Shown here: positions 3,616 through 62,376 of the stretch, piece after piece | How positions within the stretch are numbered: position 1 is the stretch's first letter | How the letters are laid out: every line of letters starts with the position of its first letter | Source of the DNA: an uncultured Acidobacteriota bacterium | Lineage (GTDB): Bacteria > Acidobacteriota > Terriglobia > Acidiferrales > UBA7541 | Direction of reading: 5' to 3' | NCBI GenBank assembly: GCA_963810565.1 | Contig: CAWENN010000001.1 | Span: forward strand, 64,666 to 128,665 | Length of the DNA: 64,000 nt | Position numbers and translations under genes: made by a program | Notes under the pieces: model-generated | Database searches by the model: none | Told to the model about the DNA's origin: nothing | Seen by the model: the letters and a program-made list of their open reading frames with translations, nothing else

Positions 3616-4332
3616 CTAAGCCGAGGCTCGAAAATCGCGGACTCGCGTTCCCGGCTTTGCCCGCAAACGATCCACCGAGGGCGCTTTCGATACATCCGCG
3701 GCGAATGCGGCGACCTGCTCTGCAGGCAGAGCGCGCAGAAAGGATTTCAACAGGACTTCAGACTCTCGCAAGCACGTGGTGAAATCGTAATGCAGGCACT
3801 CCAAAGCGTCCCAGCTGCTGCCAGGCCGAACTGAAAGTCCAGCGAACACGTCCTCCGCGGCAGCGTCAAATTCCCGAATCAGGCTTTCCAGAGTTTCCGA
3901 CAAGATACGCAACTTCTGGAAAAACCGAGAACGGTCGGCGAAGAGCACGTGATGGAGGAAATCATTCCAGGATGCTGCTGCCTGAGCGGTTTCGCCCCGA
4001 AAGAATTCAGTTTGCAGCGGCTGGACTCTCGGAATGTTATTTAGATGACGTCCACGGTCGGAGAGGCAGTGGCAAGCGCCGATCAGTTCGGCGGCTAGCT
4101 GCGCCAGCAGATCCGCGGAAACAGATACATATTGCCGCGCGCAAACCAATTCTCCACGGGTGCGGACGGAAATGGCGTCATCGAGAGAAACGCTCAGCAT
4201 CGCGTAGAAGGATTCCCATCGTTTCACGACCTCGTCGAAAACACGCGCCTTTTCGCGCGGGAGTGCCGCGATCCAATCGTCTGAGACATTGCGCCGCGAG
4301 TGGGAAGTGCCTGGCTTCCTCTTGAACAACAC
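3616..4332 (-). CDS. hypothetical protein
   Basis: 238-aa ORF, the longest in the region. It reads as helical and soluble with no motif I recognise. Divergent from lysS. Confidence 0.5.
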   Translation of the reverse strand: MLFKRKPGTSHSRRNVSDDWIAALPREKARVFDEVVKRWESFYAMLSVSLDDAISVRTRGELVCARQYVSVSADLLAQLAAELIGACHCLSDRGRHLNNIPRVQPLQTEFFRGETAQAAASWNDFLHHVLFADRSRFFQKLRILSETLESLIREFDAAAEDVFAGLSVRPGSSWDALECLHYDFTTCLRESEVLLKSFLRALPAEQVAAFAADVSKAPSVDRLRAKPGTRVRDFRASA

Positions 4333-7554: not shown

Positions 7555-8376
7555 ATGCGCATACAGTCCAATTCGAGCGTTGCTGTGCTGGAGGATGCGG
7601 CTGACGGGGTCACGACGGGCGCTGCGGAAATCGTGCGCGGCGAGGCGCTGCGCAAGACGTTTCATCCCGGCACCCAGGAAATTACACCGCTCGATGGTGT
7701 GAACTTCACGATTGCGCGTGGAGAAATGGTCGCGATTGTCGGGCCGTCCGGCGCCGGCAAAAGCACTTTGCTGCACTTGCTGGCTGCGCTGGACACTCCG
7801 ACGAACGGTACAGTATACTTCGGCGGGAATTCGCTCGAGTTGCTTTCGGAAGCGGAACTGGCGGAGTATCGCAATCGCGCGGTGGGATTTGTCTGGCAGC
7901 GTCATCACCTTCTGCCGGACTTCACGGCTGCGGAAAACGTGGCGATGCCTTTGCTGATTCGCGGGACCTCTTTGGGAGAGGCGTTGCGCACCGCGACGAA
8001 CTGGCTAGGCGAAGTTGGATTGGCCGATCGAGCGGAGCAGCGTGGGGGTCAATTATCCGGCGGCGAACAACAGCGAGTGGCCATCGCGCGGGCTCTGGTG
8101 AATGGACCGCAATTGTTGCTGGCGGACGAGCCTACCGGCGACCTGGACGAACGCAGCGCGGAAAACGTTTTCGAATTGATGCAGCACCTGCACAAGACTC
8201 ATCAGCTGACTTCCATTCTGGCAACACACAATATTTCGATCGCCCGCCGAGCCGACCGCGTTCTGCATCTGGAACACGGCAAATTGGCTTCGGGCATAGC
8301 AGCGCTCGCAGGTTCGACGGTTCCTCTCCCGCGGACGGCGAGCGTTGGGGCGCAGACTCCGGCAGAGCGTGGGTGA
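7555..8376 (+). CDS. lolD: ABC ATPase, LolD-like
   Basis: Walker [10 protein letters not shown], signature [15 protein letters not shown], Walker [13 protein letters not shown]. The LolD name is inferred from proximity to lolC/E. Confidence 0.8.
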
Positions 8377-57769: not shown

Positions 57770-59146
57770 TTAAGGATAAACTCGATACAGCATTCGAGGG
57801 AAGGGAATCACCTCGCGGATGTGCTCCGTTCCGCAAATCCATGCCACGGTACGTTCCAGGCCCAGGCCGAAGCCAGCATGCGGCACGCTGCCATAGCGGC
57901 GCAGATCCAGATACCACTGAAAAGATTCTTCCGGCAGATTGTGTTCGCGCAGGCGCTTTACCAGCGTGTCATAATCCGCCAGGCGTTCGCCGCCGCCGAT
58001 GATCTCGCCATAGCCCTCCGGAGCGATCATGTCGAAGCTTAAGGAAAGCTCGGGACGTGCCGCATCCGTTGCCATGTAAAACGCCTTCATCGCCGCAGGG
58101 TAGCGGTGAATGATCACTGGCCGGTCGAACTCCTTGGAAATGATGGTTTCTTCGTCGCCGCCGAAATCGTCGCCCCACTTCGCGGGATTGCCTGCCTTCT
58201 GCAGCACCTTGATCGCGTCGTCGTAGGTGATTCGCGGAAACGGCGGCGTGATCTTCGCTAACTTCGCCACGTCCCGCTCGATCAAGGCCAATTCTCGCGT
58301 GCGATTCTTGGCCACGGACTGTACGACCGCACTCACCAAACCTTCGCCCAGCTGGATCATATCTTCCAAGTGCGCGAAAGCCGCTTCAGGCTCGAGCATC
58401 CAGAATTCGGTCAAGTGCCGGCGAGTTTTGGATTTTTCCGCGCGAAACGTGGGACCGAAAGTGTAAACCTTGCCGAGAGCCGCAGCCAAAGCCTCCACGT
58501 ATAGTTGCCCTGACTGGGTGAGATAAGCTTTCTGATCGTCAATGTAATTCACTTCAAAAAGAGTCGTGGTGCCTTCGCAGGCCGCGGGCGTAAAAATGGG
58601 CGCGTCGGTGAGCGTATAGCCTCGCTCGTCCATGAAATTCCGAGCAGCCCGCTCGACTTCCGCGCGAATGCGCAGAATGGCCGCCTGCCGCGGCGTGCGA
58701 ATCCAGAGATGGCGCCGGTCGAGCAAAAAATCAACGCCATGCTCCTTGAGCTGAATCGGATAGGGCTCGGAATCGGCAACCCGCTGAATCACCTCGACGC
58801 TGCTCACGCCTATCTCAAATCCGCCTGGCGCACGGGGCTCCGCGCGAACCGCGCCGGTAACGACGACGCTCGATTCCTGGGGCAAACCTTTTAGCGCGCT
58901 GAACGCTTCCGGATGTTCCTTCAGCGAAACCACGCCCTGAATGATCCCGGTCCCATCACGAAAAATCGGGAACAACAGCTTGCCCGATTCACGGAGGTTG
59001 TAAAGCCATCCGCGAATTACGACGCTGCTGCCGGCGTGCGCGCCTGCCTGTTCAATTGTGATCGCCGAAATTGACGCTTGCGCTTCCTGTGTCATTGGTT
59101 CGTCCGTAATCTTGGAATCACTGCGTGCGCGTTGCCGCTGCGTCAA
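57770..59146 (-). CDS. asnS: asparagine--tRNA ligase
   Basis: OB fold ([26 protein letters not shown]) and class IIb motifs ([31 protein letters not shown]). TTG 59146 overlaps the upstream stop; ATG 59095 is an alternative. Confidence 0.85.
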
Positions 59147-59997
59147 GGCCGGGCGGCGCCGGTTCCGAGCGAGTCAAATTTTTCCTCGACTTTGTCGCAT
59201 GCGGCGCGAATCTGCTCGAGCGTCGGCCCCGCGGCCCCCTGTGCCTTAATTTCAAATACGAACGGGACGGGCTGCGCGGCTCCCGCGATCGCTCGTAGCG
59301 CCGCATCCCATTCAATCGTGCCGTCGAACGGCAAAAGGTGCTCGTCCTTATCACCGTGATTGTCGTGAATGTGCGCGGTGACCACGCGCTCGCGCATCGC
59401 TTCGAAACCGCCCGCCACGCCTTCTTCCGCGTGGGCGTGCCCGATGTCGAAGCACAACTTCAAATCGTGCAAGTGCGTGTCCGTGATGAAATGCTGCAAC
59501 GACGACGGCGCGCCCAGCTCGTCCGGAGTATTTTCCAGCGCAATCGTCACACCGCGCGCTTTTGCGAACATCGATAAATTTTCAAGCGACGTAAACGCCG
59601 CGTCAAGCTTCCGCGGATCCGCCATCTGGCGGCCGTGCCCAATATGCTGTACCAGAAACTGAAACGGAATTCGCTCGGCTACATCGAGCGCGCGCTTGAT
59701 TTCATCCACCGCATCGAGCCGGCGAATCCTCTCGGGATCCGAAATTGAAATCGGCACACCGCTCTCGCGCCCGGGTGCCAGATCGCGTTCGGTCGGGGAG
59801 TGTAAGGAATGCAATCGCAAGCGATGCTCGCCCAGGGCGTCGCCCAGCTCGCGAACTGCCTGTGAATCGCGATAGCTGAAGTGCTGCGGCGCGCAGAAAA
59901 CTTCCACTCCGGAAAATCTGGCCGTCGCGATCTCGCCAAGCATCGCCGGGCCGAGCGGTTGGTTTATAAATCGGTAAGTGGATAGGATGCGCTGCAC
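59143..59997 (-). CDS. sugar phosphate isomerase/epimerase (xylose isomerase-like TIM barrel)
   Basis: 284 aa with the pattern [30 protein letters not shown]. Confidence 0.75.
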
Positions 59998-60245
59998 GCT
60001 GTCCCCAGAGAAGGAACACTATCGTCAACGGAAATCGCAGTTACGTCAATAGCGTGTGCTGGAAGTGTGGCGAAAAAAGTATTCGGCGCCCTCGAGCCTT
60101 GTGGAGGCTTTCATTTCGAGTGAGGACGTCACGGCCCATTGCGGTTGCAGGCTGATGATTCAGAGCAGCTTAGCGGAAGACCACCCACGTTCTCGCCAGA
60201 TAATCATCTCCCATATCACCCGAACGCAAGTCCTCTGGGCCTCCG

Positions 60246-60479
60246 CTATCCGGAACTCAGCACGAAAAGGCCCGCGGCGATCAAACCGCCCAAGAGCAAT
60301 GCGATAAGCAGCCAGACCGGAAACGGCAGCCGCTTATCCATGAGGCCGGGCGGCGGAGGCGTGGGTTCTTGAAAGTCGAGGATGTCAACTACCGTGCCTT
60401 TTACCGGAGGACGCGCACCACGCCCGGATGAAGGGTTGGGTTCCGGCTCTGGCGGCTCGTTGCTGGGGTTAAAAGCCAT
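60246..60479 (-). CDS. tail-anchored micro-protein, paralog 1 (77 aa)
   Basis: MAFNPSNEPPEPEPN...RLPFPVWLLIALLLGGLIAAGLFVLSSG. The start at 60479 was chosen because it has the same upstream element and spacing as paralogs 2 and 3. Confidence 0.5.
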   Translation of the reverse strand: MAFNPSNEPPEPEPNPSSGRGARPPVKGTVVDILDFQEPTPPPPGLMDKRLPFPVWLLIALLLGGLIAAGLFVLSSG

Positions 60480-60486
60480 CAAGCAA

Positions 60487-60495
60487 ATGTTAGCA
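60487..60495 (-). promoter_or_regulatory. extended -10 element TGCTAACAT, 7 nt upstream of ATG 60479
   Basis: Minus sense reads GTGCTAACAT-ttgcttg-ATG. There is no SD. Confidence 0.45.
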
Positions 60496-60599
60496 CCGTG
60501 GAAAACCACATCGCAACCAGGTCCACTCAAAGTCACGCTTGGGATATTGGCGATTTCAGATGCGGCGAACAGAAGGGGTCGTGCGCAGCACAGTTGCTT

Positions 60600-60833
60600 T
60601 TAGCGGACGAAAATCGTGATCAATCCGAACGCGGCGAGAGCGCCGGCGAGAATCGCAATCACCATCCAACGGCCAAGTTGTGGATGAGATTTCGGGAGGC
60701 CCAGCATGTGCACCGAGGGATCGGCTTCGCCAAACAACCTTGCGCTGGCTGATCGCGAGGAGCGAGCTACTTCCGCCTCCGGCGCGCCGTCGGTCCTGGA
60801 ATGTGATGCGTCAACAACTACTCCGCTGGGCAT
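60600..60833 (-). CDS. tail-anchored micro-protein, paralog 2 (77 aa)
   Basis: MPSGVVVDASHSRTDG...HPQLGRWMVIAILAGALAAFGLITIFVR. Confidence 0.5.
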   Translation of the reverse strand: MPSGVVVDASHSRTDGAPEAEVARSSRSASARLFGEADPSVHMLGLPKSHPQLGRWMVIAILAGALAAFGLITIFVR

Positions 60834-60840
60834 TGGCGGG

Positions 60841-60849
60841 ATACTAGCA
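60841..60849 (-). promoter_or_regulatory. extended -10 element TGCTAGTAT, 7 nt upstream of ATG 60833
   Basis: Minus sense reads GTGCTAGTAT-cccgcca-ATG. There is no SD. Confidence 0.45.
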
Positions 60850-60948
60850 CTAATCTTCGGCGTTCACGCAACGGATTTCGAAAGAATTAATACCAGGACT
60901 GTGTCGATCTGAACCGTCGCAGTAAGCAAAAATACTGACTCGCGTTGG

Positions 60949-61179
60949 TCAGCGGATCGCCAGCTGGACGAACGCCAATGCCACCACGCCGCCAGCCACC
61001 ACCGCCAGCGCAATCCATCGCGAAATTCCCCGATTGCGTTTGCTCAGCTGCCGCACGTGCGAGGATAGTCCGTGCGCCGCAGGGGAGGGAATGAGTCCTC
61101 GCTGCGGAATAAGCGGTACGATGCCTGCGATCGGCGTCGTTTCGCGGCTGGAGAGGGAGCCCAAGTCTCGCCGTTTCAT
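60949..61179 (-). CDS. tail-anchored micro-protein, paralog 3 (76 aa)
   Basis: MKRRDLGSLSSRETTP...NRGISRWIALAVVAGGVVALAFVQLAIR. Confidence 0.5.
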   Translation of the reverse strand: MKRRDLGSLSSRETTPIAGIVPLIPQRGLIPSPAAHGLSSHVRQLSKRNRGISRWIALAVVAGGVVALAFVQLAIR

Positions 61180-61186
61180 GCTTCGG

Positions 61187-61195
61187 ATGCTAGCA
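61187..61195 (-). promoter_or_regulatory. extended -10 element TGCTAGCAT, 7 nt upstream of ATG 61179
   Basis: Minus sense reads GTGCTAGCAT-ccgaagc-ATG. There is no SD. Confidence 0.45.
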
Positions 61196-61305
61196 CGCGC
61201 GTTTCGGCAGAATTATGGCGCCGCCTGCGCCGAAGCCCAAACAGCTATTGTCACTTCCGCTAAATAACCTTCGGGATAGAAGAGGAGAAACGAAACGTCA
61301 GCTCA

Positions 61306-62376
61306 TCAACCGTTGAGTTCTGCCAGCACCTTGGGAAGCAAAGCGAATTTTGCGAATGCCGTATCGCTCGAGAGGTACTCCACGCCGCAAGAGGGCCCCA
61401 GGTACGCACGTCCTCCCTGAATTCGAGGGAACAATCGCTCCACCTGTCGCGCGACCTCTGCCGGCTTCTCCATGTGCTGCTTGCGGCCGTCCACCAGCCC
61501 CAGCGCCAGCGGTTTCGGAGATCCGCTCGATGCGATCGTGTCAATCAATCCCGTGCCGCAGGTGAAATCAATCCCCACGATATCCACGGGCAATTCCACG
61601 AGCTTTTCGTAAATCGCTGCGCTGTCGTGGAAATAAACGTAGAGCGCGAGTTCAAGTTTGCGCTCGGCTTTTCTTGCCTTGTCGCGAGCCTGAAGCAATA
61701 TCTTCAGCGACTGCTCAAATATTGCCCAGTCGCCGGGGTGCCGCAAAATCGCGGGCTCATCAATTTGGATCAGTTCCGCGCCCGTCTGTGACAGCGCTTC
61801 AATTTCCGGGGCGAGAATCTCGGCGTAAGAGTGCGCGCGCGCTTCGAGCGTCGCAGGTCCGTGCGCTCCGCCATTGTCCGAACGAGCCGAAAGCGAAAAC
61901 TTCGCGAGAGTATAAGGCCCGGTCAGGACCGGTTTGATGGCGAGCTTGCCCGCTTTGTGTTTCGGCGTCGGCAAATGGCCCAGCGCATTGCGCGCAAAGC
62001 TATATTCTGCGGTGATCAGGTGCCCGCGTCGCAACGGTTGGCCCGTGAATACCGGCTGTCGGCAGCAAACATCGGTGTCAAAAAATGGAACGGTACCTTG
62101 AAATTCGATATTATCCAGTTTCGCCGCGAGATAAGAAATGGGATCGTTCCAGCGGATTTGGCCGTCGGTCACGACGTCCAGCCCCGCCTTCACCTGCGCC
62201 GCGATTGCCAGCCGCGTCACTTGATTCTGCGCGTCCAGCAAGTCTGCCGTGGTGCGGTCCCCGGAACCAAGAGATGCAATGGTTTCTTGCAATAATTGCA
62301 GTTCGGGAGAGTCTCCGACGCGCGGATAGCCGCCGGTGCTGGAGAGATAGAGCCCAGGAGCCGTGGTGCTCATCAA
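61306..62376 (-). CDS. stand-alone MetE-like protein resembling the N-terminal (Meth_synt_1) half of cobalamin-independent methionine synthase
   Basis: GYPRVGDSPELQ, KPVLTGPYTL, LIQIDEPAIL, LALGLVDGRKQ and YLGPSCGVEYL parallel the E. coli MetE N-domain. The HxC zinc motif is absent (FHDS). Confidence 0.7.
   Translation of the reverse strand: MMSTTAPGLYLSSTGGYPRVGDSPELQLLQETIASLGSGDRTTADLLDAQNQVTRLAIAAQVKAGLDVVTDGQIRWNDPISYLAAKLDNIEFQGTVPFFDTDVCCRQPVFTGQPLRRGHLITAEYSFARNALGHLPTPKHKAGKLAIKPVLTGPYTLAKFSLSARSDNGGAHGPATLEARAHSYAEILAPEIEALSQTGAELIQIDEPAILRHPGDWAIFEQSLKILLQARDKARKAERKLELALYVYFHDSAAIYEKLVELPVDIVGIDFTCGTGLIDTIASSGSPKPLALGLVDGRKQHMEKPAEVARQVERLFPRIQGGRAYLGPSCGVEYLSSDTAFAKFALLPKVLAELNG

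What the first reader, a model, noticed from the sequence alone, without database searches (positions are those of the whole stretch)
60246..61195. Tandem array of three leaderless, tail-anchored micro-proteins with identical extended -10/N7/ATG layout
Three consecutive minus-strand ORFs of 77, 77 and 76 aa share one architecture. Each has about 50 aa of polar, Pro-rich low complexity, a conserved Trp, and then a single C-terminal TM helix that ends the protein. The C-termini are RLPFPVWLLIALLLGGLIAAGLFVLSSG, HPQLGRWMVIAILAGALAAFGLITIFVR and NRGISRWIALAVVAGGVVALAFVQLAIR. Each ATG is preceded by the same element at the same distance: GTGCTAACAT-N7-ATG, GTGCTAGTAT-N7-ATG and GTGCTAGCAT-N7-ATG. 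This is an extended -10 (TGnTAnnAT), and the 7-nt spacing would place the transcription start on or next to the A of the ATG. None has a Shine-Dalgarno sequence. The unit (gene plus ~115-120 nt spacer) repeats about every 350 nt. I cannot assign a function or family.
Basis: seen in the sequence. Interest (0 to 1): 0.7.

Follow-up and report, generated by a model that had tools for sequence, protein, structure and literature searches.

The report
Three leaderless tail-anchored membrane micro-protein genes
Three small neighbouring genes of an uncultured soil acidobacterium each appear to be transcribed from a promoter that abuts the start codon, giving messages with no leader, and they encode tiny proteins held in the membrane by their last 20 residues; the family is conserved and unnamed, and its function is unknown.

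Summary
Three minus-strand ORFs (76, 77 and 77 aa) each follow GTGCTAnnAT-N7-ATG, and that pattern occurs nowhere else in the 64 kb window. The window comes from a Candidatus Acidiferrales (Acidobacteriota) MAG.

- **Coding:** the ORFs are real genes. Orthologue dN/dS is 0.14-0.27 with dS near 0.9.
- **Family:** they are ancient paralogues (types A, B, C; 16-23% identical), not recent repeats. The family has about 107 clusters at 50% identity. All but one member is 35-115 aa, and none matches Pfam, NCBIfam, PHROGs, PADLOC or PDB.
- **Promoter layout:** 164 of 202 non-identical family genes keep an in-frame TAnnnT-N6/7-ATG/GTG, and 153 of these have the TG extension. Controls gave 0 and 1. Lone copies in unrelated contexts keep it too. 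Other genes in about 260 kb of these genomes show no such enrichment, so the leaderless layout belongs to the family.
- **Protein:** a disordered cytoplasmic N-part, a basic juxtamembrane stretch, an invariant W-x3-A-x3-G-x3-A face, and a C-terminal TM helix.

Transcription starts, translation and function are not shown. The closest analogue is YqjD/ElaB/YgaM, but homology was tested and rejected. This is a well-supported, moderately interesting new family of a known kind.

The parts
60949..61179 (-). Gene A (76 aa). A-type family member with juxtamembrane motif GLSSHVRQLSKRNRGISRW and a TM helix at residues 55-75 (nt 61017-60955).
   Evidence: ORF. Orthologue dN/dS is 0.27 overall and 0.13 in the last 40 codons. 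AlphaFold2 gives a helix at 50-75 with pLDDT 85-95. Hydropathy.
61187..61195 (-). Extended -10 of gene A: TGC TAGCAT. Seven nt (61186-61180) separate it from the ATG at 61179. No convincing -35.
   Evidence: conserved as GTG[CAT]TAGCAT in 8 of 9 close genomes. Family-wide consensus.
61238..61253 (-). Conserved 16-nt block TGACAATAGCTGTTTG, about 45 nt upstream of A's -10 and about 55 nt after the stop of the metE-like gene. Role unknown; it could be an activator or operator site or an RNA 3' element.
   Evidence: Nearly invariant in 9 aligned genomes while its flanks diverge. Also present in L051, L070 and L075. No significant RNA fold.
60924..60953 (-). Weak terminator-like hairpin with a T-tract directly after the stop of gene A.
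   Evidence: The fold is not better than shuffles (z = -1.2) and it is kept only in the closest genomes.
60600..60833 (-). Gene B (77 aa). B-type member with motif DPSVHMLGLPKSHPQLGRW and a TM helix at residues 56-76 (nt 60668-60606).
   Evidence: ORF. dN/dS is 0.19. B-type relatives were found in 67 metagenome loci.
60841..60893 (-). Promoter of gene B: AT-rich UP-like block GTATTAATTCTTTCGAAAT (60893-60875), -35 TTGCGT (60871-60866), a 19-nt spacer, and extended -10 TGC TAGTAT (60849-60841). N7 then precedes the ATG at 60833.
   Evidence: All three blocks are phylogenetic footprints in the 9-genome alignment. Motif counts.
60246..60479 (-). Gene C (77 aa). C-type member with motif PPPPGLMDKRLPFPVW and a TM helix from residue 56 (nt 60314-60249). 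This is the most widespread type.
   Evidence: ORF. dN/dS is 0.14 overall and 0.07 in the last 40 codons. C-type is present in nearly all 116 related loci.
60487..60516 (-). Promoter of gene C: -35 TTGCGA (60516-60511), an 18-nt spacer containing the inverted repeat GTGGTTTTCCAC (60509-60498), and extended -10 TGC TAACAT (60495-60487). N7 then precedes the ATG at 60479.
   Evidence: The block TGGTTGCGATGTGGTTTTCCACGGTGCTAACATTT is almost invariant in the close clade while the flanks diverge.

Best explanation
The locus holds three separate genes, paralogues A, B and C of one uncharacterised family found so far only in Candidatus Acidiferrales MAGs and soil metagenomes.

Expression (inferred). 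Each gene has its own housekeeping-sigma promoter: TTGCnn, then 18-19 nt, then TGnTAnnAT. The -10 hexamer ends 7 nt before the ATG. RNA polymerase would therefore start at, or one base before, the A of the ATG. The mRNA would have no 5' UTR and no Shine-Dalgarno sequence, and would be translated by the leaderless route, with the ribosome binding a 5'-terminal AUG. This layout is a heritable property of the family, not of the genome.

Products (shown by sequence and model). Each is a 76-77 aa C-tail-anchored inner-membrane protein with these parts:
- an N-terminal part of about 50 aa that is cytoplasmic and disordered, and carries short conserved motifs;
- a basic juxtamembrane stretch, which by the positive-inside rule places the N-terminus in the cytoplasm;
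- an invariant Trp at the membrane interface;
- one TM helix with an invariant W-x3-A-x3-G-x3-A face;
- only 1-4 residues beyond the membrane.

Function (inferred, weakest step). The small-xxx-small face mediates helix-helix packing, either among A, B and C or with a partner membrane protein. The disordered N-parts act as membrane-tethered docking peptides for cytoplasmic partners. The nearly constant position after the MetH-fragment and MetE-like genes makes methionine-synthase components the first candidates. In one clade the family gene is also translationally coupled to the core MetE gene.
For: Coding:
- dN/dS is 0.27, 0.19 and 0.14 for A, B and C at dS of about 0.9 over 9-10 orthologues. 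Constraint is strongest in the last 40 codons.
- The family HMM finds members in nearly all of 49 genome loci and all 67 metagenome loci.
- 107 clusters at 50% identity were found among 1.84 billion proteins, all but one of them 35-115 aa.

Promoter and leaderless layout:
- The exact motif occurs only at these three genes in the window.
- 164 of 202 non-identical family genes have an in-frame, open TAnnnT-N6/7-ATG (125) or GTG (39). 153 of them carry TGn.
- The other two frames score 6 and 16. Controls score 0 (reverse complement) and 1 (shuffle).
- Positions the search did not impose are conserved: G-18 87%, G-17 92%, T-16 98%, G-15 97% and A-9 99%.
- The two variable bases of the hexamer change freely (GC, GT, AC, CC, CT). 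That fits a -10 box and not a codon pattern.
- 66 of 161 genes cannot start further upstream, because a stop codon comes first. Window genes A and B are among them.
- -35 and UP-like footprints are conserved.
- Eight lone copies in unrelated contexts still have TAGCAT or TATGAT-N6-ATG.
- In about 260 kb there is no enrichment of -10 boxes at N6-8 before other genes. Every N7 case is a family member.
- The adjacent TIM-barrel gene has a normal leader with a GGGGA Shine-Dalgarno sequence.
- Published rules agree. TANNNT about 12 bp before the start marks bacterial leaderless genes (PMC3160421). In mycobacteria an ATG or GTG at the 5' end is necessary and sufficient for leaderless initiation (PMC4633059).

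Protein:
- The only hydrophobic segment is residues 55-76.
- AlphaFold2 gives pLDDT below 55 for residues 1-40, a helix at 41-47 and a helix at 50-75 with pLDDT 85-95.
- M1, W55, A59, G63 and A67 are invariant across all three types.

Link to methionine-synthase genes:
- Synteny MetHc-metE1-(metE2)-family genes-(GGT)-TIM barrel-AsnRS holds in about 59 of 67 loci that were retrieved with the small protein itself.
- In clade L012/13/14/18/21/23/49 the family gene's GTG overlaps the TGA of metE2.
Against: - No transcription start, transcript, peptide or membrane localisation has been observed. The organism is uncultured.
- Gene A lacks a recognisable -35.
- The spacers hold no convincing terminators, so read-through from the metE-like gene and from one small gene into the next is likely to coexist with the proposed promoters.
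- About 19% of family genes depart from the layout. Some have N8-10 spacing (L027-L048). Some are split genes (L011 clade), some have lost the promoter (L012 clade), and a few have mutated boxes or starts (L002 A, L003 C, L043 A). A strictly 0-nt leader is therefore not obligatory.
- The functional part rests only on architecture and gene order. Synteny within one order may simply reflect shared descent, the window clade has lost metE2, and lone copies sit elsewhere.
- The leaderless-versus-genome contrast was measured on about 260 kb, not on whole genomes.
Confidence: 0.72

Rival explanations
1. The genes are real, but they are expressed mainly as distal cistrons of a long transcript from the MetH-fragment/metE-like operon, with internal initiation that needs no Shine-Dalgarno sequence. 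The conserved TGnTAnnAT would then be something other than a promoter, such as a protein or ribosome binding site near the start.
For: All genes are co-directional, and there are no convincing terminators between metE1, A, B and C. Few genes in the window show a strong Shine-Dalgarno sequence in a crude scan. In one clade the family gene is translationally coupled to metE2 without any promoter of its own.
Against: The conserved positions are exactly those of an extended -10 (TG at -16/-15, T-13, A-12, A-9, T-8), with degenerate middle bases. They come with -35-like TTGCnn at 18-19 nt and an UP-like AT block. The layout persists in lone copies that have no upstream operon. A and B carry it although their upstream frames are closed.
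Confidence: 0.12
2. The proteins are functional analogues of the E. coli tail-anchored trio YqjD/ElaB/YgaM. In that model they would be membrane-bound, stress-induced ribosome-binding or hibernation factors. The TM helix would dimerise and the N-terminus would engage the ribosome.
For: The gross plan is the same: three paralogues of about 75-100 aa, no signal peptide, a conserved Trp at the start of a Gly/Ala-rich C-terminal TM, and a terminal Arg in A and B (family description in bioRxiv 10.1101/2024.08.16.608256). The extreme N-terminus is conserved from Met1 in many members, as M-P/T-x-E-[IF]-[ITS]-[DE].
Against: No homology is detectable. No Pfam match reached significance and DUF883 was not among even the weak hits listed at E up to 1 or 0.1. 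Profile-profile comparison gives a probability of 1.2%. The N-part is predicted disordered, not helical. The Pro-Trp pair is present only in type C. No yqjE/yqjK-like neighbours are present.
Confidence: 0.08
3. The true proteins are longer. The conserved 'promoter' would then be coding sequence for an N-terminal extension (…G-A-N/S-I…), as many automatic annotations have it (87-110 aa versions).
For: The C frame is open to a GTG at 60536. Many database entries start upstream, for example P0002 MVFHGANICLMAFN…. The fixed N7 spacing automatically puts the motif in frame.
Against: In the window, A and B have in-frame stops between the previous possible start and the ATG. 66 of 161 family genes cannot be extended. 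Protein conservation begins at the proposed Met and not before it. The variable hexamer bases fall on first, second and third codon positions alike, giving S, N and T.
Confidence: 0.03
4. The ORFs are chance open frames in a GC-rich spacer, or decaying pseudogenes.
For: GC-rich DNA throws up many spurious ORFs. A few family copies are frameshifted or truncated: A-type genes in L046, L051 and L075.
Against: dN/dS is 0.14-0.27 at near-saturated dS. Length is conserved at 76-77 aa. The family has about 107 clusters at 50% identity, with invariant residues.
Confidence: 0.02

Closest known systems
[quoted passage not shown]
   Same: Both are small proteins without a signal peptide, with a single TM at the extreme C-terminus. 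Both have a conserved Trp at the cytoplasmic interface, a Gly/Ala small-residue face in the TM (which drives dimerisation in YqjD), a terminal Arg, and three paralogues per genome.
   Different: There is no sequence or profile similarity. The N-part is disordered here and helical in DUF883. These proteins are shorter (76 vs about 100 aa). The three genes are clustered, each with a leaderless-type promoter, whereas the E. coli genes are dispersed and leadered. No ribosome link has been shown here.
Leaderless ('TA-led') genes of Actinobacteria and Deinococcus-Thermus, and the leaderless small proteins of mycobacteria
   Same: A -10 box TAnnnT lies 6-7 nt before an ATG or GTG start with no Shine-Dalgarno sequence (PMC3160421, PMC4633059). 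The products are small, unannotated or mis-annotated proteins. In relatives there is an RTGA stop/start overlap coupling a leaderless short ORF to the next ORF.
   Different: In those phyla leaderless genes make up 20% or more of the genome. Here, about 260 kb of Acidiferrales sequence shows no general signal, and the layout tracks one protein family across its paralogues and contexts. The element is almost always the extended form GGTGnTAnnAT.
Bacterial small membrane proteins that act as accessory subunits or regulators (e.g. AcrZ, KdpF, CydX, MgtS; cited from general knowledge)
   Same: They are under 100 aa with a single TM helix, conserved helix-packing residues and lineage-restricted distribution.
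   Different: Those proteins are mostly 30-50 aa with little beyond the helix, and they are usually encoded in or next to the operon of their membrane partner. Here a 50-aa cytoplasmic tail carries conserved motifs, and the neighbours are soluble enzymes.

Membership tests
Bacterial leaderless (TA-led) genes | A -10-like TANNNT box about 12 bp (first T) upstream of the start codon | tested here: met
   The first T lies 13 nt before the A of the ATG in all three genes. The box is kept in 164 of 202 family genes. Criterion from PMC3160421.
Bacterial leaderless (TA-led) genes | No Shine-Dalgarno sequence between promoter and start | tested here: met
   Only 7 nt separate the -10 from the ATG, and none contains GGAG, GAGG or AGGA.
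Bacterial leaderless (TA-led) genes | The transcription start coincides with the start codon (5'-terminal AUG/GUG) | not testable with these tools
   This needs 5'-end mapping. The spacing puts the A of the ATG 8 nt after the hexamer (7 nt in the N6 class). From general knowledge of bacterial promoters, that is within the usual range for start-site selection.
[quoted passage not shown] | A single TM domain at the extreme C-terminus and no N-terminal signal or other hydrophobic segment | tested here: met
   The 19-residue Kyte-Doolittle maximum is 2.4-2.7 at residues 55-76 and at most 1.0 elsewhere. Only 1-4 residues follow the TM. AlphaFold2 gives a helix at 50-75. Definition as in PMC6794478.
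[quoted passage not shown] | Actual membrane insertion with the N-terminus in the cytoplasm | not testable with these tools
   Inferred from 2-5 Lys/Arg in the 15 residues before the Trp.
YqjD/ElaB/YgaM (DUF883) | Sequence match to the DUF883 domains | tested here: not met
   No Pfam family reached significance and DUF883 was not among the hits listed (E up to 1 for the three window proteins; E up to 0.1 for 30 members). hhalign against an alignment of the three E. coli proteins gives a probability of 1.2%.
YqjD/ElaB/YgaM (DUF883) | A largely alpha-helical cytoplasmic part, and a conserved Pro-Trp immediately before the TM | tested here: not met
   Residues 1-40 are predicted disordered. The Trp is invariant, but Pro precedes it only in type C (…FPVW). 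A and B have SRW and GRW.
YqjD/ElaB/YgaM (DUF883) | Binding and inactivation of ribosomes | not testable with these tools
   A biochemical property (bioRxiv 10.1101/2024.08.16.608256).
PEP-CTERM / other C-terminal sorting-signal proteins (common in Acidobacteriota) | An N-terminal signal peptide plus a recognised C-terminal sorting motif model | tested here: not met
   There is no N-terminal hydrophobic segment. None of the NCBIfam matches at E up to 1 was a sorting-signal model.
Type I toxin-antitoxin small hydrophobic toxins | A small TM peptide with an overlapping or adjacent antisense RNA gene | tested here: inconclusive
   There are no promoter-like sites on the opposite strand, no Rfam match and no PADLOC match. 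The simple scan also failed to call the three sense promoters, so it is insensitive.
Leaderless uORF coupled by RTGA overlap (mycobacterial type) | A short leaderless ORF whose TGA overlaps the RTG start of the next ORF | tested here: not met
   This is not the case in the window, where all three genes are single ORFs. It is met only in relatives (L011 clade).

The most novel reading that the evidence does not exclude
Leaderless expression could be an obligate, selected property of this protein family in a lineage that otherwise uses leadered mRNAs. The three micro-proteins would then be made by a separate initiation route, for instance under conditions that favour 70S or leaderless initiation such as stress or slow growth.

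Together they would form a heteromeric tail-anchored platform through the W-x3-A-x3-G-x3-A face. That platform would recruit a cytoplasmic machine to the membrane. Candidates are the split MetH/MetE methionine-synthase components encoded upstream or, as in YqjD, the ribosome.

The split-gene variants in sister clades (a leaderless 23-27 aa ORF joined to the TM ORF by GTGA, next to an A7 run) would add a translational switch, by reinitiation or -1 frameshifting, on the same scaffold.
Probability: 0.12. Interest if true: 0.7.

Novelty: new member of a known kind. Interest (0 to 1): 0.45.

Why it matters
- **A named family becomes possible.** About 107 clusters at 50% identity of conserved, selected micro-proteins from an abundant but uncultured soil order currently have no name. 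Many are mis-annotated because gene callers extend the N-terminus through the promoter.
- **A gene-level leaderless trait.** This is a clean comparative case in which the leaderless architecture is inherited with a gene family across paralogues, start-codon changes (ATG to GTG) and genomic contexts, rather than being a genome-wide habit. Such cases help in asking why particular genes are leaderless.
- **Testable promoter consensus.** The locus offers a consensus for Acidobacteriota (TTGCnn-N18-19-GGTGnTAnnAT), a phylum for which I know of very little promoter data.
- **A concrete target.** The invariant Trp and small-xxx-small TM face, together with the conserved cytoplasmic motifs, suit interaction studies.

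Tried and rejected
- **Family and structure libraries.** Pfam gave only sub-threshold TM-driven hits (DUF2065, DUF6133). NCBIfam gave only one chance-level hit (a PTS transporter model, E = 0.08). PADLOC, PHROGs and PDB sequences also gave nothing.
- **RNA families.** Rfam found nothing at gathering thresholds on the whole window. At E up to 1 on the locus it gave only a chance lncRNA hit.
- **DUF883 homology.** I tested it by building an alignment of E. coli YqjD/ElaB/YgaM and running hhalign. Rejected.
- **Spacer RNA structure.** Folds of the four spacers are no better than shuffles. Only one weak hairpin with a T-tract was found.
- **sigma-70 consensus scan.** The simple scan called none of the promoters. 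It requires 9 of 12 matches, and the -35 boxes here are TTGCnn.
- **Genome-wide leaderless usage.** I looked for it as a trivial explanation and did not find it.
- **Recent tandem duplication.** Rejected, because there is no DNA similarity between the units.
- **Sorting-signal reading (PEP-CTERM-like).** Rejected, because there is no signal peptide.
- **Locus retrieval.** The search for related loci on the mixed A/B/C alignment failed for lack of a conserved stretch. I repeated it with the B-type alignment.
- **Taxonomy of distant members.** The cluster look-up gave no names beyond Acidiferrales.
- **AlphaFold2.** It gave nothing beyond a disordered part plus a TM helix, so I made no fold search.
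Full report
**1. What is in the sequence**

On the minus strand, downstream of a MetE-like gene (61306-62376), lie three ORFs. The MetE-like gene matches Pfam Meth_synt_1 and Meth_synt_2.
- A: 60949-61179, 76 aa.
- B: 60600-60833, 77 aa.
- C: 60246-60479, 77 aa from the ATG.

They are followed by a xylose-isomerase-like TIM-barrel gene (59143-59997) and an asparaginyl-tRNA synthetase gene.

GTGCTANNAT-N7-ATG occurs three times in the 64 kb window, only in front of these ORFs. With one mismatch allowed, 0.49 matches are expected and no shuffle reached three. The starts are 346 and 354 nt apart.

The three proteins are only about 23% identical, and the DNA units align only at the promoter element. 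The only hydrophobic segment is the last 20-odd residues, with 1-4 residues after it. 'Pro-rich' applies to C (27% Pro) but not to A or B (9%).

**2. Organism and relatives**

The MetE-like protein retrieves 49 loci from GTDB species genomes. They are labelled Candidatus Acidiferrales, 'uncultured Acidobacteriota', and in single cases Terriglobales, Terriglobia or (one MAG) Dormiibacterota. The best locus is 99% identical (taxonomy).

A profile of the three small proteins finds 76 close relatives. All are hypothetical proteins from such MAGs or soil metagenomes. An exhaustive HMM search of 1.84 billion representatives finds 107 clusters at 50% identity. All are 35-115 aa except one fused or mis-called entry of 208 aa.

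The members fall into three types:
- A: …GLSxH[VM]RxLRRRNxGxSRW…
- B: …DPSxHMLGLPKSxPxLxxW…
- C: …PPxGLMRKRxxxxxW…

M1, W55, A59, G63 and A67 are invariant across all three types. These residues form a W-x3-A-x3-G-x3-A helical face.

Nothing in Pfam, NCBIfam, PHROGs, PADLOC or PDB matches.

**3. They are genes**

Across 9-10 orthologues, dS is about 0.9. dN/dS is 0.27 for A, 0.19 for B and 0.14 for C. In the last 40 codons it falls to 0.07-0.17. Length is held at 76-77 aa. A few copies are broken: the A-type genes in L046, L051 and L075.

**4. The promoter-at-the-start layout is a family trait**

A nine-genome alignment of the whole spacer region shows sharp footprints on a diverged background.
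- *Gene B:* an AT-rich block, TTGCnn, 19 nt, then TGCTAnnAT.
- *Gene C:* TTGCGA, then 18 nt containing the inverted repeat GTGGTTTTCCAC, then TGCTAACAT.
- *Gene A:* GTGnTAGCAT without a clear -35, plus a conserved 16-mer TGACAATAGCTGTTTG further upstream.

Across all loci held (49 genome, 67 metagenome and the window), 164 of 202 non-identical family genes have TAnnnT followed by 6 nt (19 genes) or 7 nt (145 genes) and an in-frame ATG (125) or GTG (39) that opens the conserved ORF. 153 of them have the TG extension. The same test gives 6 and 16 in the other two frames, 0 on the reverse complement and 1 on shuffles.

Positions the search did not impose are highly conserved: G-18 87%, G-17 92%, T-16 98%, G-15 97% and A-9 99%. 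The consensus is GGTGnTAgnATc-N6-RTG.

The two middle bases of the hexamer vary freely. That is the signature of a -10 box, not of codons. 66 of 161 genes, including window genes A and B, cannot start further upstream because a stop comes first. Many database entries do start upstream. Their extra residues …GANI… or …GASI… are simply the translated promoter GGTGCTAACATT.

Eight lone copies sit in unrelated neighbourhoods, next to a MerR-like regulator, ABC transporter genes or a phosphate-transporter-like gene. These neighbour labels come from reading the ORF sequences, not from a family search. The lone copies still carry TAGCAT-N6-ATG or TATGAT-N6-ATG.

Other genes do not share the layout. 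In the window plus 15 divergent loci (about 260 kb), -10-like boxes show no peak at 6-8 nt before ORF-opening ATGs, and every N7 TAnnAT case is a family member. The TIM-barrel gene next door has a conserved promoter-like block, a leader and a GGGGA Shine-Dalgarno sequence.

This geometry is the published signature of bacterial leaderless genes: TANNNT about 12 bp before the start (PMC3160421). In mycobacteria a 5'-terminal ATG or GTG is necessary and sufficient for leaderless initiation (PMC4633059).

I therefore infer three autonomous leaderless transcription units. The start sites themselves are not shown. The spacers lack convincing terminators, so read-through transcripts probably exist as well.

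**5. Exceptions that inform the picture**

- *N8-10 clade.* In clade L027-L048 the A-type spacing is 8-10 nt, which would give a very short leader.
- *Split-gene clade.* In clade L011/15/16/17/19/20/24/25/26 the C-type gene is split. TGCTAGCAT-N6-ATG opens a 23-27 aa ORF (MREEF…KKP*). Its N-terminus resembles that of intact C-type proteins. In most of these genomes its TGA overlaps a GTG (GTGA) in the frame that encodes the conserved LPEIVPPPPGLMRKRRPIWxW-TM part, and most have an A6-A7 run just before the junction.
- *How the split genes are read.* Termination-reinitiation through an RTGA overlap is described for mycobacterial leaderless uORFs (PMC4633059), and it fits all nine genomes. A -1 frameshift on A_AAA_AAA does not fit L017 and L025, where the frames differ by +1 and a TAA lies 7 nt before the GTG.
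- *Coupling to metE2.* In clade L012/13/14/18/21/23/49 the promoter and N-part are deleted. The same GTG now overlaps the TGA of the core MetE gene, so the micro-protein is coupled to metE2.
- *Synteny.* Gene order MetH-fragment, metE1, (metE2), family genes, (gamma-glutamyltranspeptidase), TIM barrel, AsnRS holds in about 59 of 67 loci retrieved with the B-type protein itself. The window clade has lost metE2 at this position.

**6. The proteins**

AlphaFold2 with the family alignment gives low confidence for residues 1-40, a short helix at 41-47 and a confident helix at 50-75. Two to five Lys/Arg lie in the 15 residues before the Trp, and almost nothing follows the helix. That implies an N-in, C-tail-anchored topology.

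The invariant small-residue face argues for specific helix packing. The conserved short motifs in an otherwise disordered tail argue for docking of partners. They include an N-terminal M-P/T-x-E-[IF]-[ITS]-[DE] in many members. This functional reading is inference only.

**7. Comparison with known systems**

The nearest analogue in plan is the E. coli trio YqjD/ElaB/YgaM. These are tail-anchored, have a Pro-Trp before a Gly-rich dimerising TM, end in Arg-Arg, and have N-termini that bind and block ribosomes (bioRxiv 10.1101/2024.08.16.608256).

Membership fails. There is no DUF883 match, hhalign probability is 1.2% against an alignment of the three E. coli proteins, and the N-part is disordered rather than helical.

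In expression mode the genes belong with the TA-led leaderless genes of Actinobacteria and Deinococcus. They differ in that the trait here follows one family instead of the genome.

**8. Verdict**

This is a new, unnamed family of a known kind: leaderless genes encoding C-tail-anchored micro-proteins. Comparative evidence for a promoter abutting the start codon is unusually clean. Function is unknown, and I have proposed testable candidates. Interest is moderate (0.45). It would rise if 5'-end mapping confirmed family-specific leaderless expression, or if a partner such as methionine synthase or the ribosome were found.

Noticed in passing
L011:8076-8317 (also L015, L016, L017, L019, L020, L024, L025, L026 at about 8070-8330): In a sister clade the C-type gene is split. 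A leaderless 23-27 aa ORF (TGCTAGCAT-N6-ATG, MREEF…KKP*) ends, in most of these genomes, in a TGA that overlaps a GTG (GTGA). That GTG lies in the frame encoding the conserved PPPPGLMRKR-W-TM part, and most genomes have an A6-A7 run just before it. The arrangement looks like termination-reinitiation coupling. A -1 frameshift on A_AAA_AAA is the alternative, but it does not fit L017 and L025.
   Followed up: partly
L012:8090-8227 (also L013, L014, L018, L021, L023, L049): In another clade the promoter and N-terminal part are deleted. The same GTG overlaps the TGA stop of the core MetE (Meth_synt_2) gene (…EKKS* / TCGTGATC). A TM mini-protein of about 45 aa is therefore translationally coupled to metE2.
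   Followed up: partly
window 61306-62376 compared with L022:6001-8075: Most Acidiferrales loci have two MetE-like genes in tandem. The first is a divergent copy with a strong N-domain-type (Meth_synt_1) match and a weak Meth_synt_2 match. The second is a core catalytic Meth_synt_2 gene. The window clade keeps only the first at this position. Compared with L022, the core gene and a gamma-glutamyltranspeptidase gene are missing, and a B-type micro-protein gene is present.
   Followed up: partly
window 61238-61253 (-): The 16-nt block TGACAATAGCTGTTTG is nearly invariant across diverged genomes. It lies between the stop of the metE-like gene and gene A's -10. A short hairpin that seems to covary (GTCAT…ATGAC, or GTTAT…GTGAC in the window) precedes it. 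Its role is unknown.
   Followed up: no
window 60498-60509 (-): The inverted repeat GTGGTTTTCCAC sits inside the -35/-10 spacer of gene C and is conserved in the close clade. It could be an operator overlapping the promoter.
   Followed up: no
window 59998-60055 (-): A highly conserved block lies upstream of the TIM-barrel gene: two TTGACG boxes, GATAGT, and a GGGGA Shine-Dalgarno sequence 5 nt before the GTG. It looks like an ordinary leadered promoter and start. I used it as a contrast to the micro-protein genes.
   Followed up: partly
window 29186-29206 (-): The 1094-aa secretin/FG-GAP gene (25937-29221) has an internal candidate start ATG at 29188. TAGCAT lies 5 nt before it, and TG-TAGAAT lies 10 nt before it. 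This may be another gene with a very short leader or none.
   Followed up: no
P0002, P0005, P0007, P0013, P0048-P0052 and others: Public gene calls for this family often begin 10-30 codons too early. They translate the promoter (GGTGCTAACATT gives G-A-N-I, GGTGCTAGTATC gives G-A-S-I). This is a systematic annotation artefact for leaderless small genes.
   Followed up: yes
L046:7193-7535; L051 about 3650-3897; L075 about 2390-2619: The A-type copies in these genomes are frameshifted relative to their leaderless ATG. Either they are decaying or the assemblies contain errors. A-type seems the most dispensable of the three paralogues.
   Followed up: no
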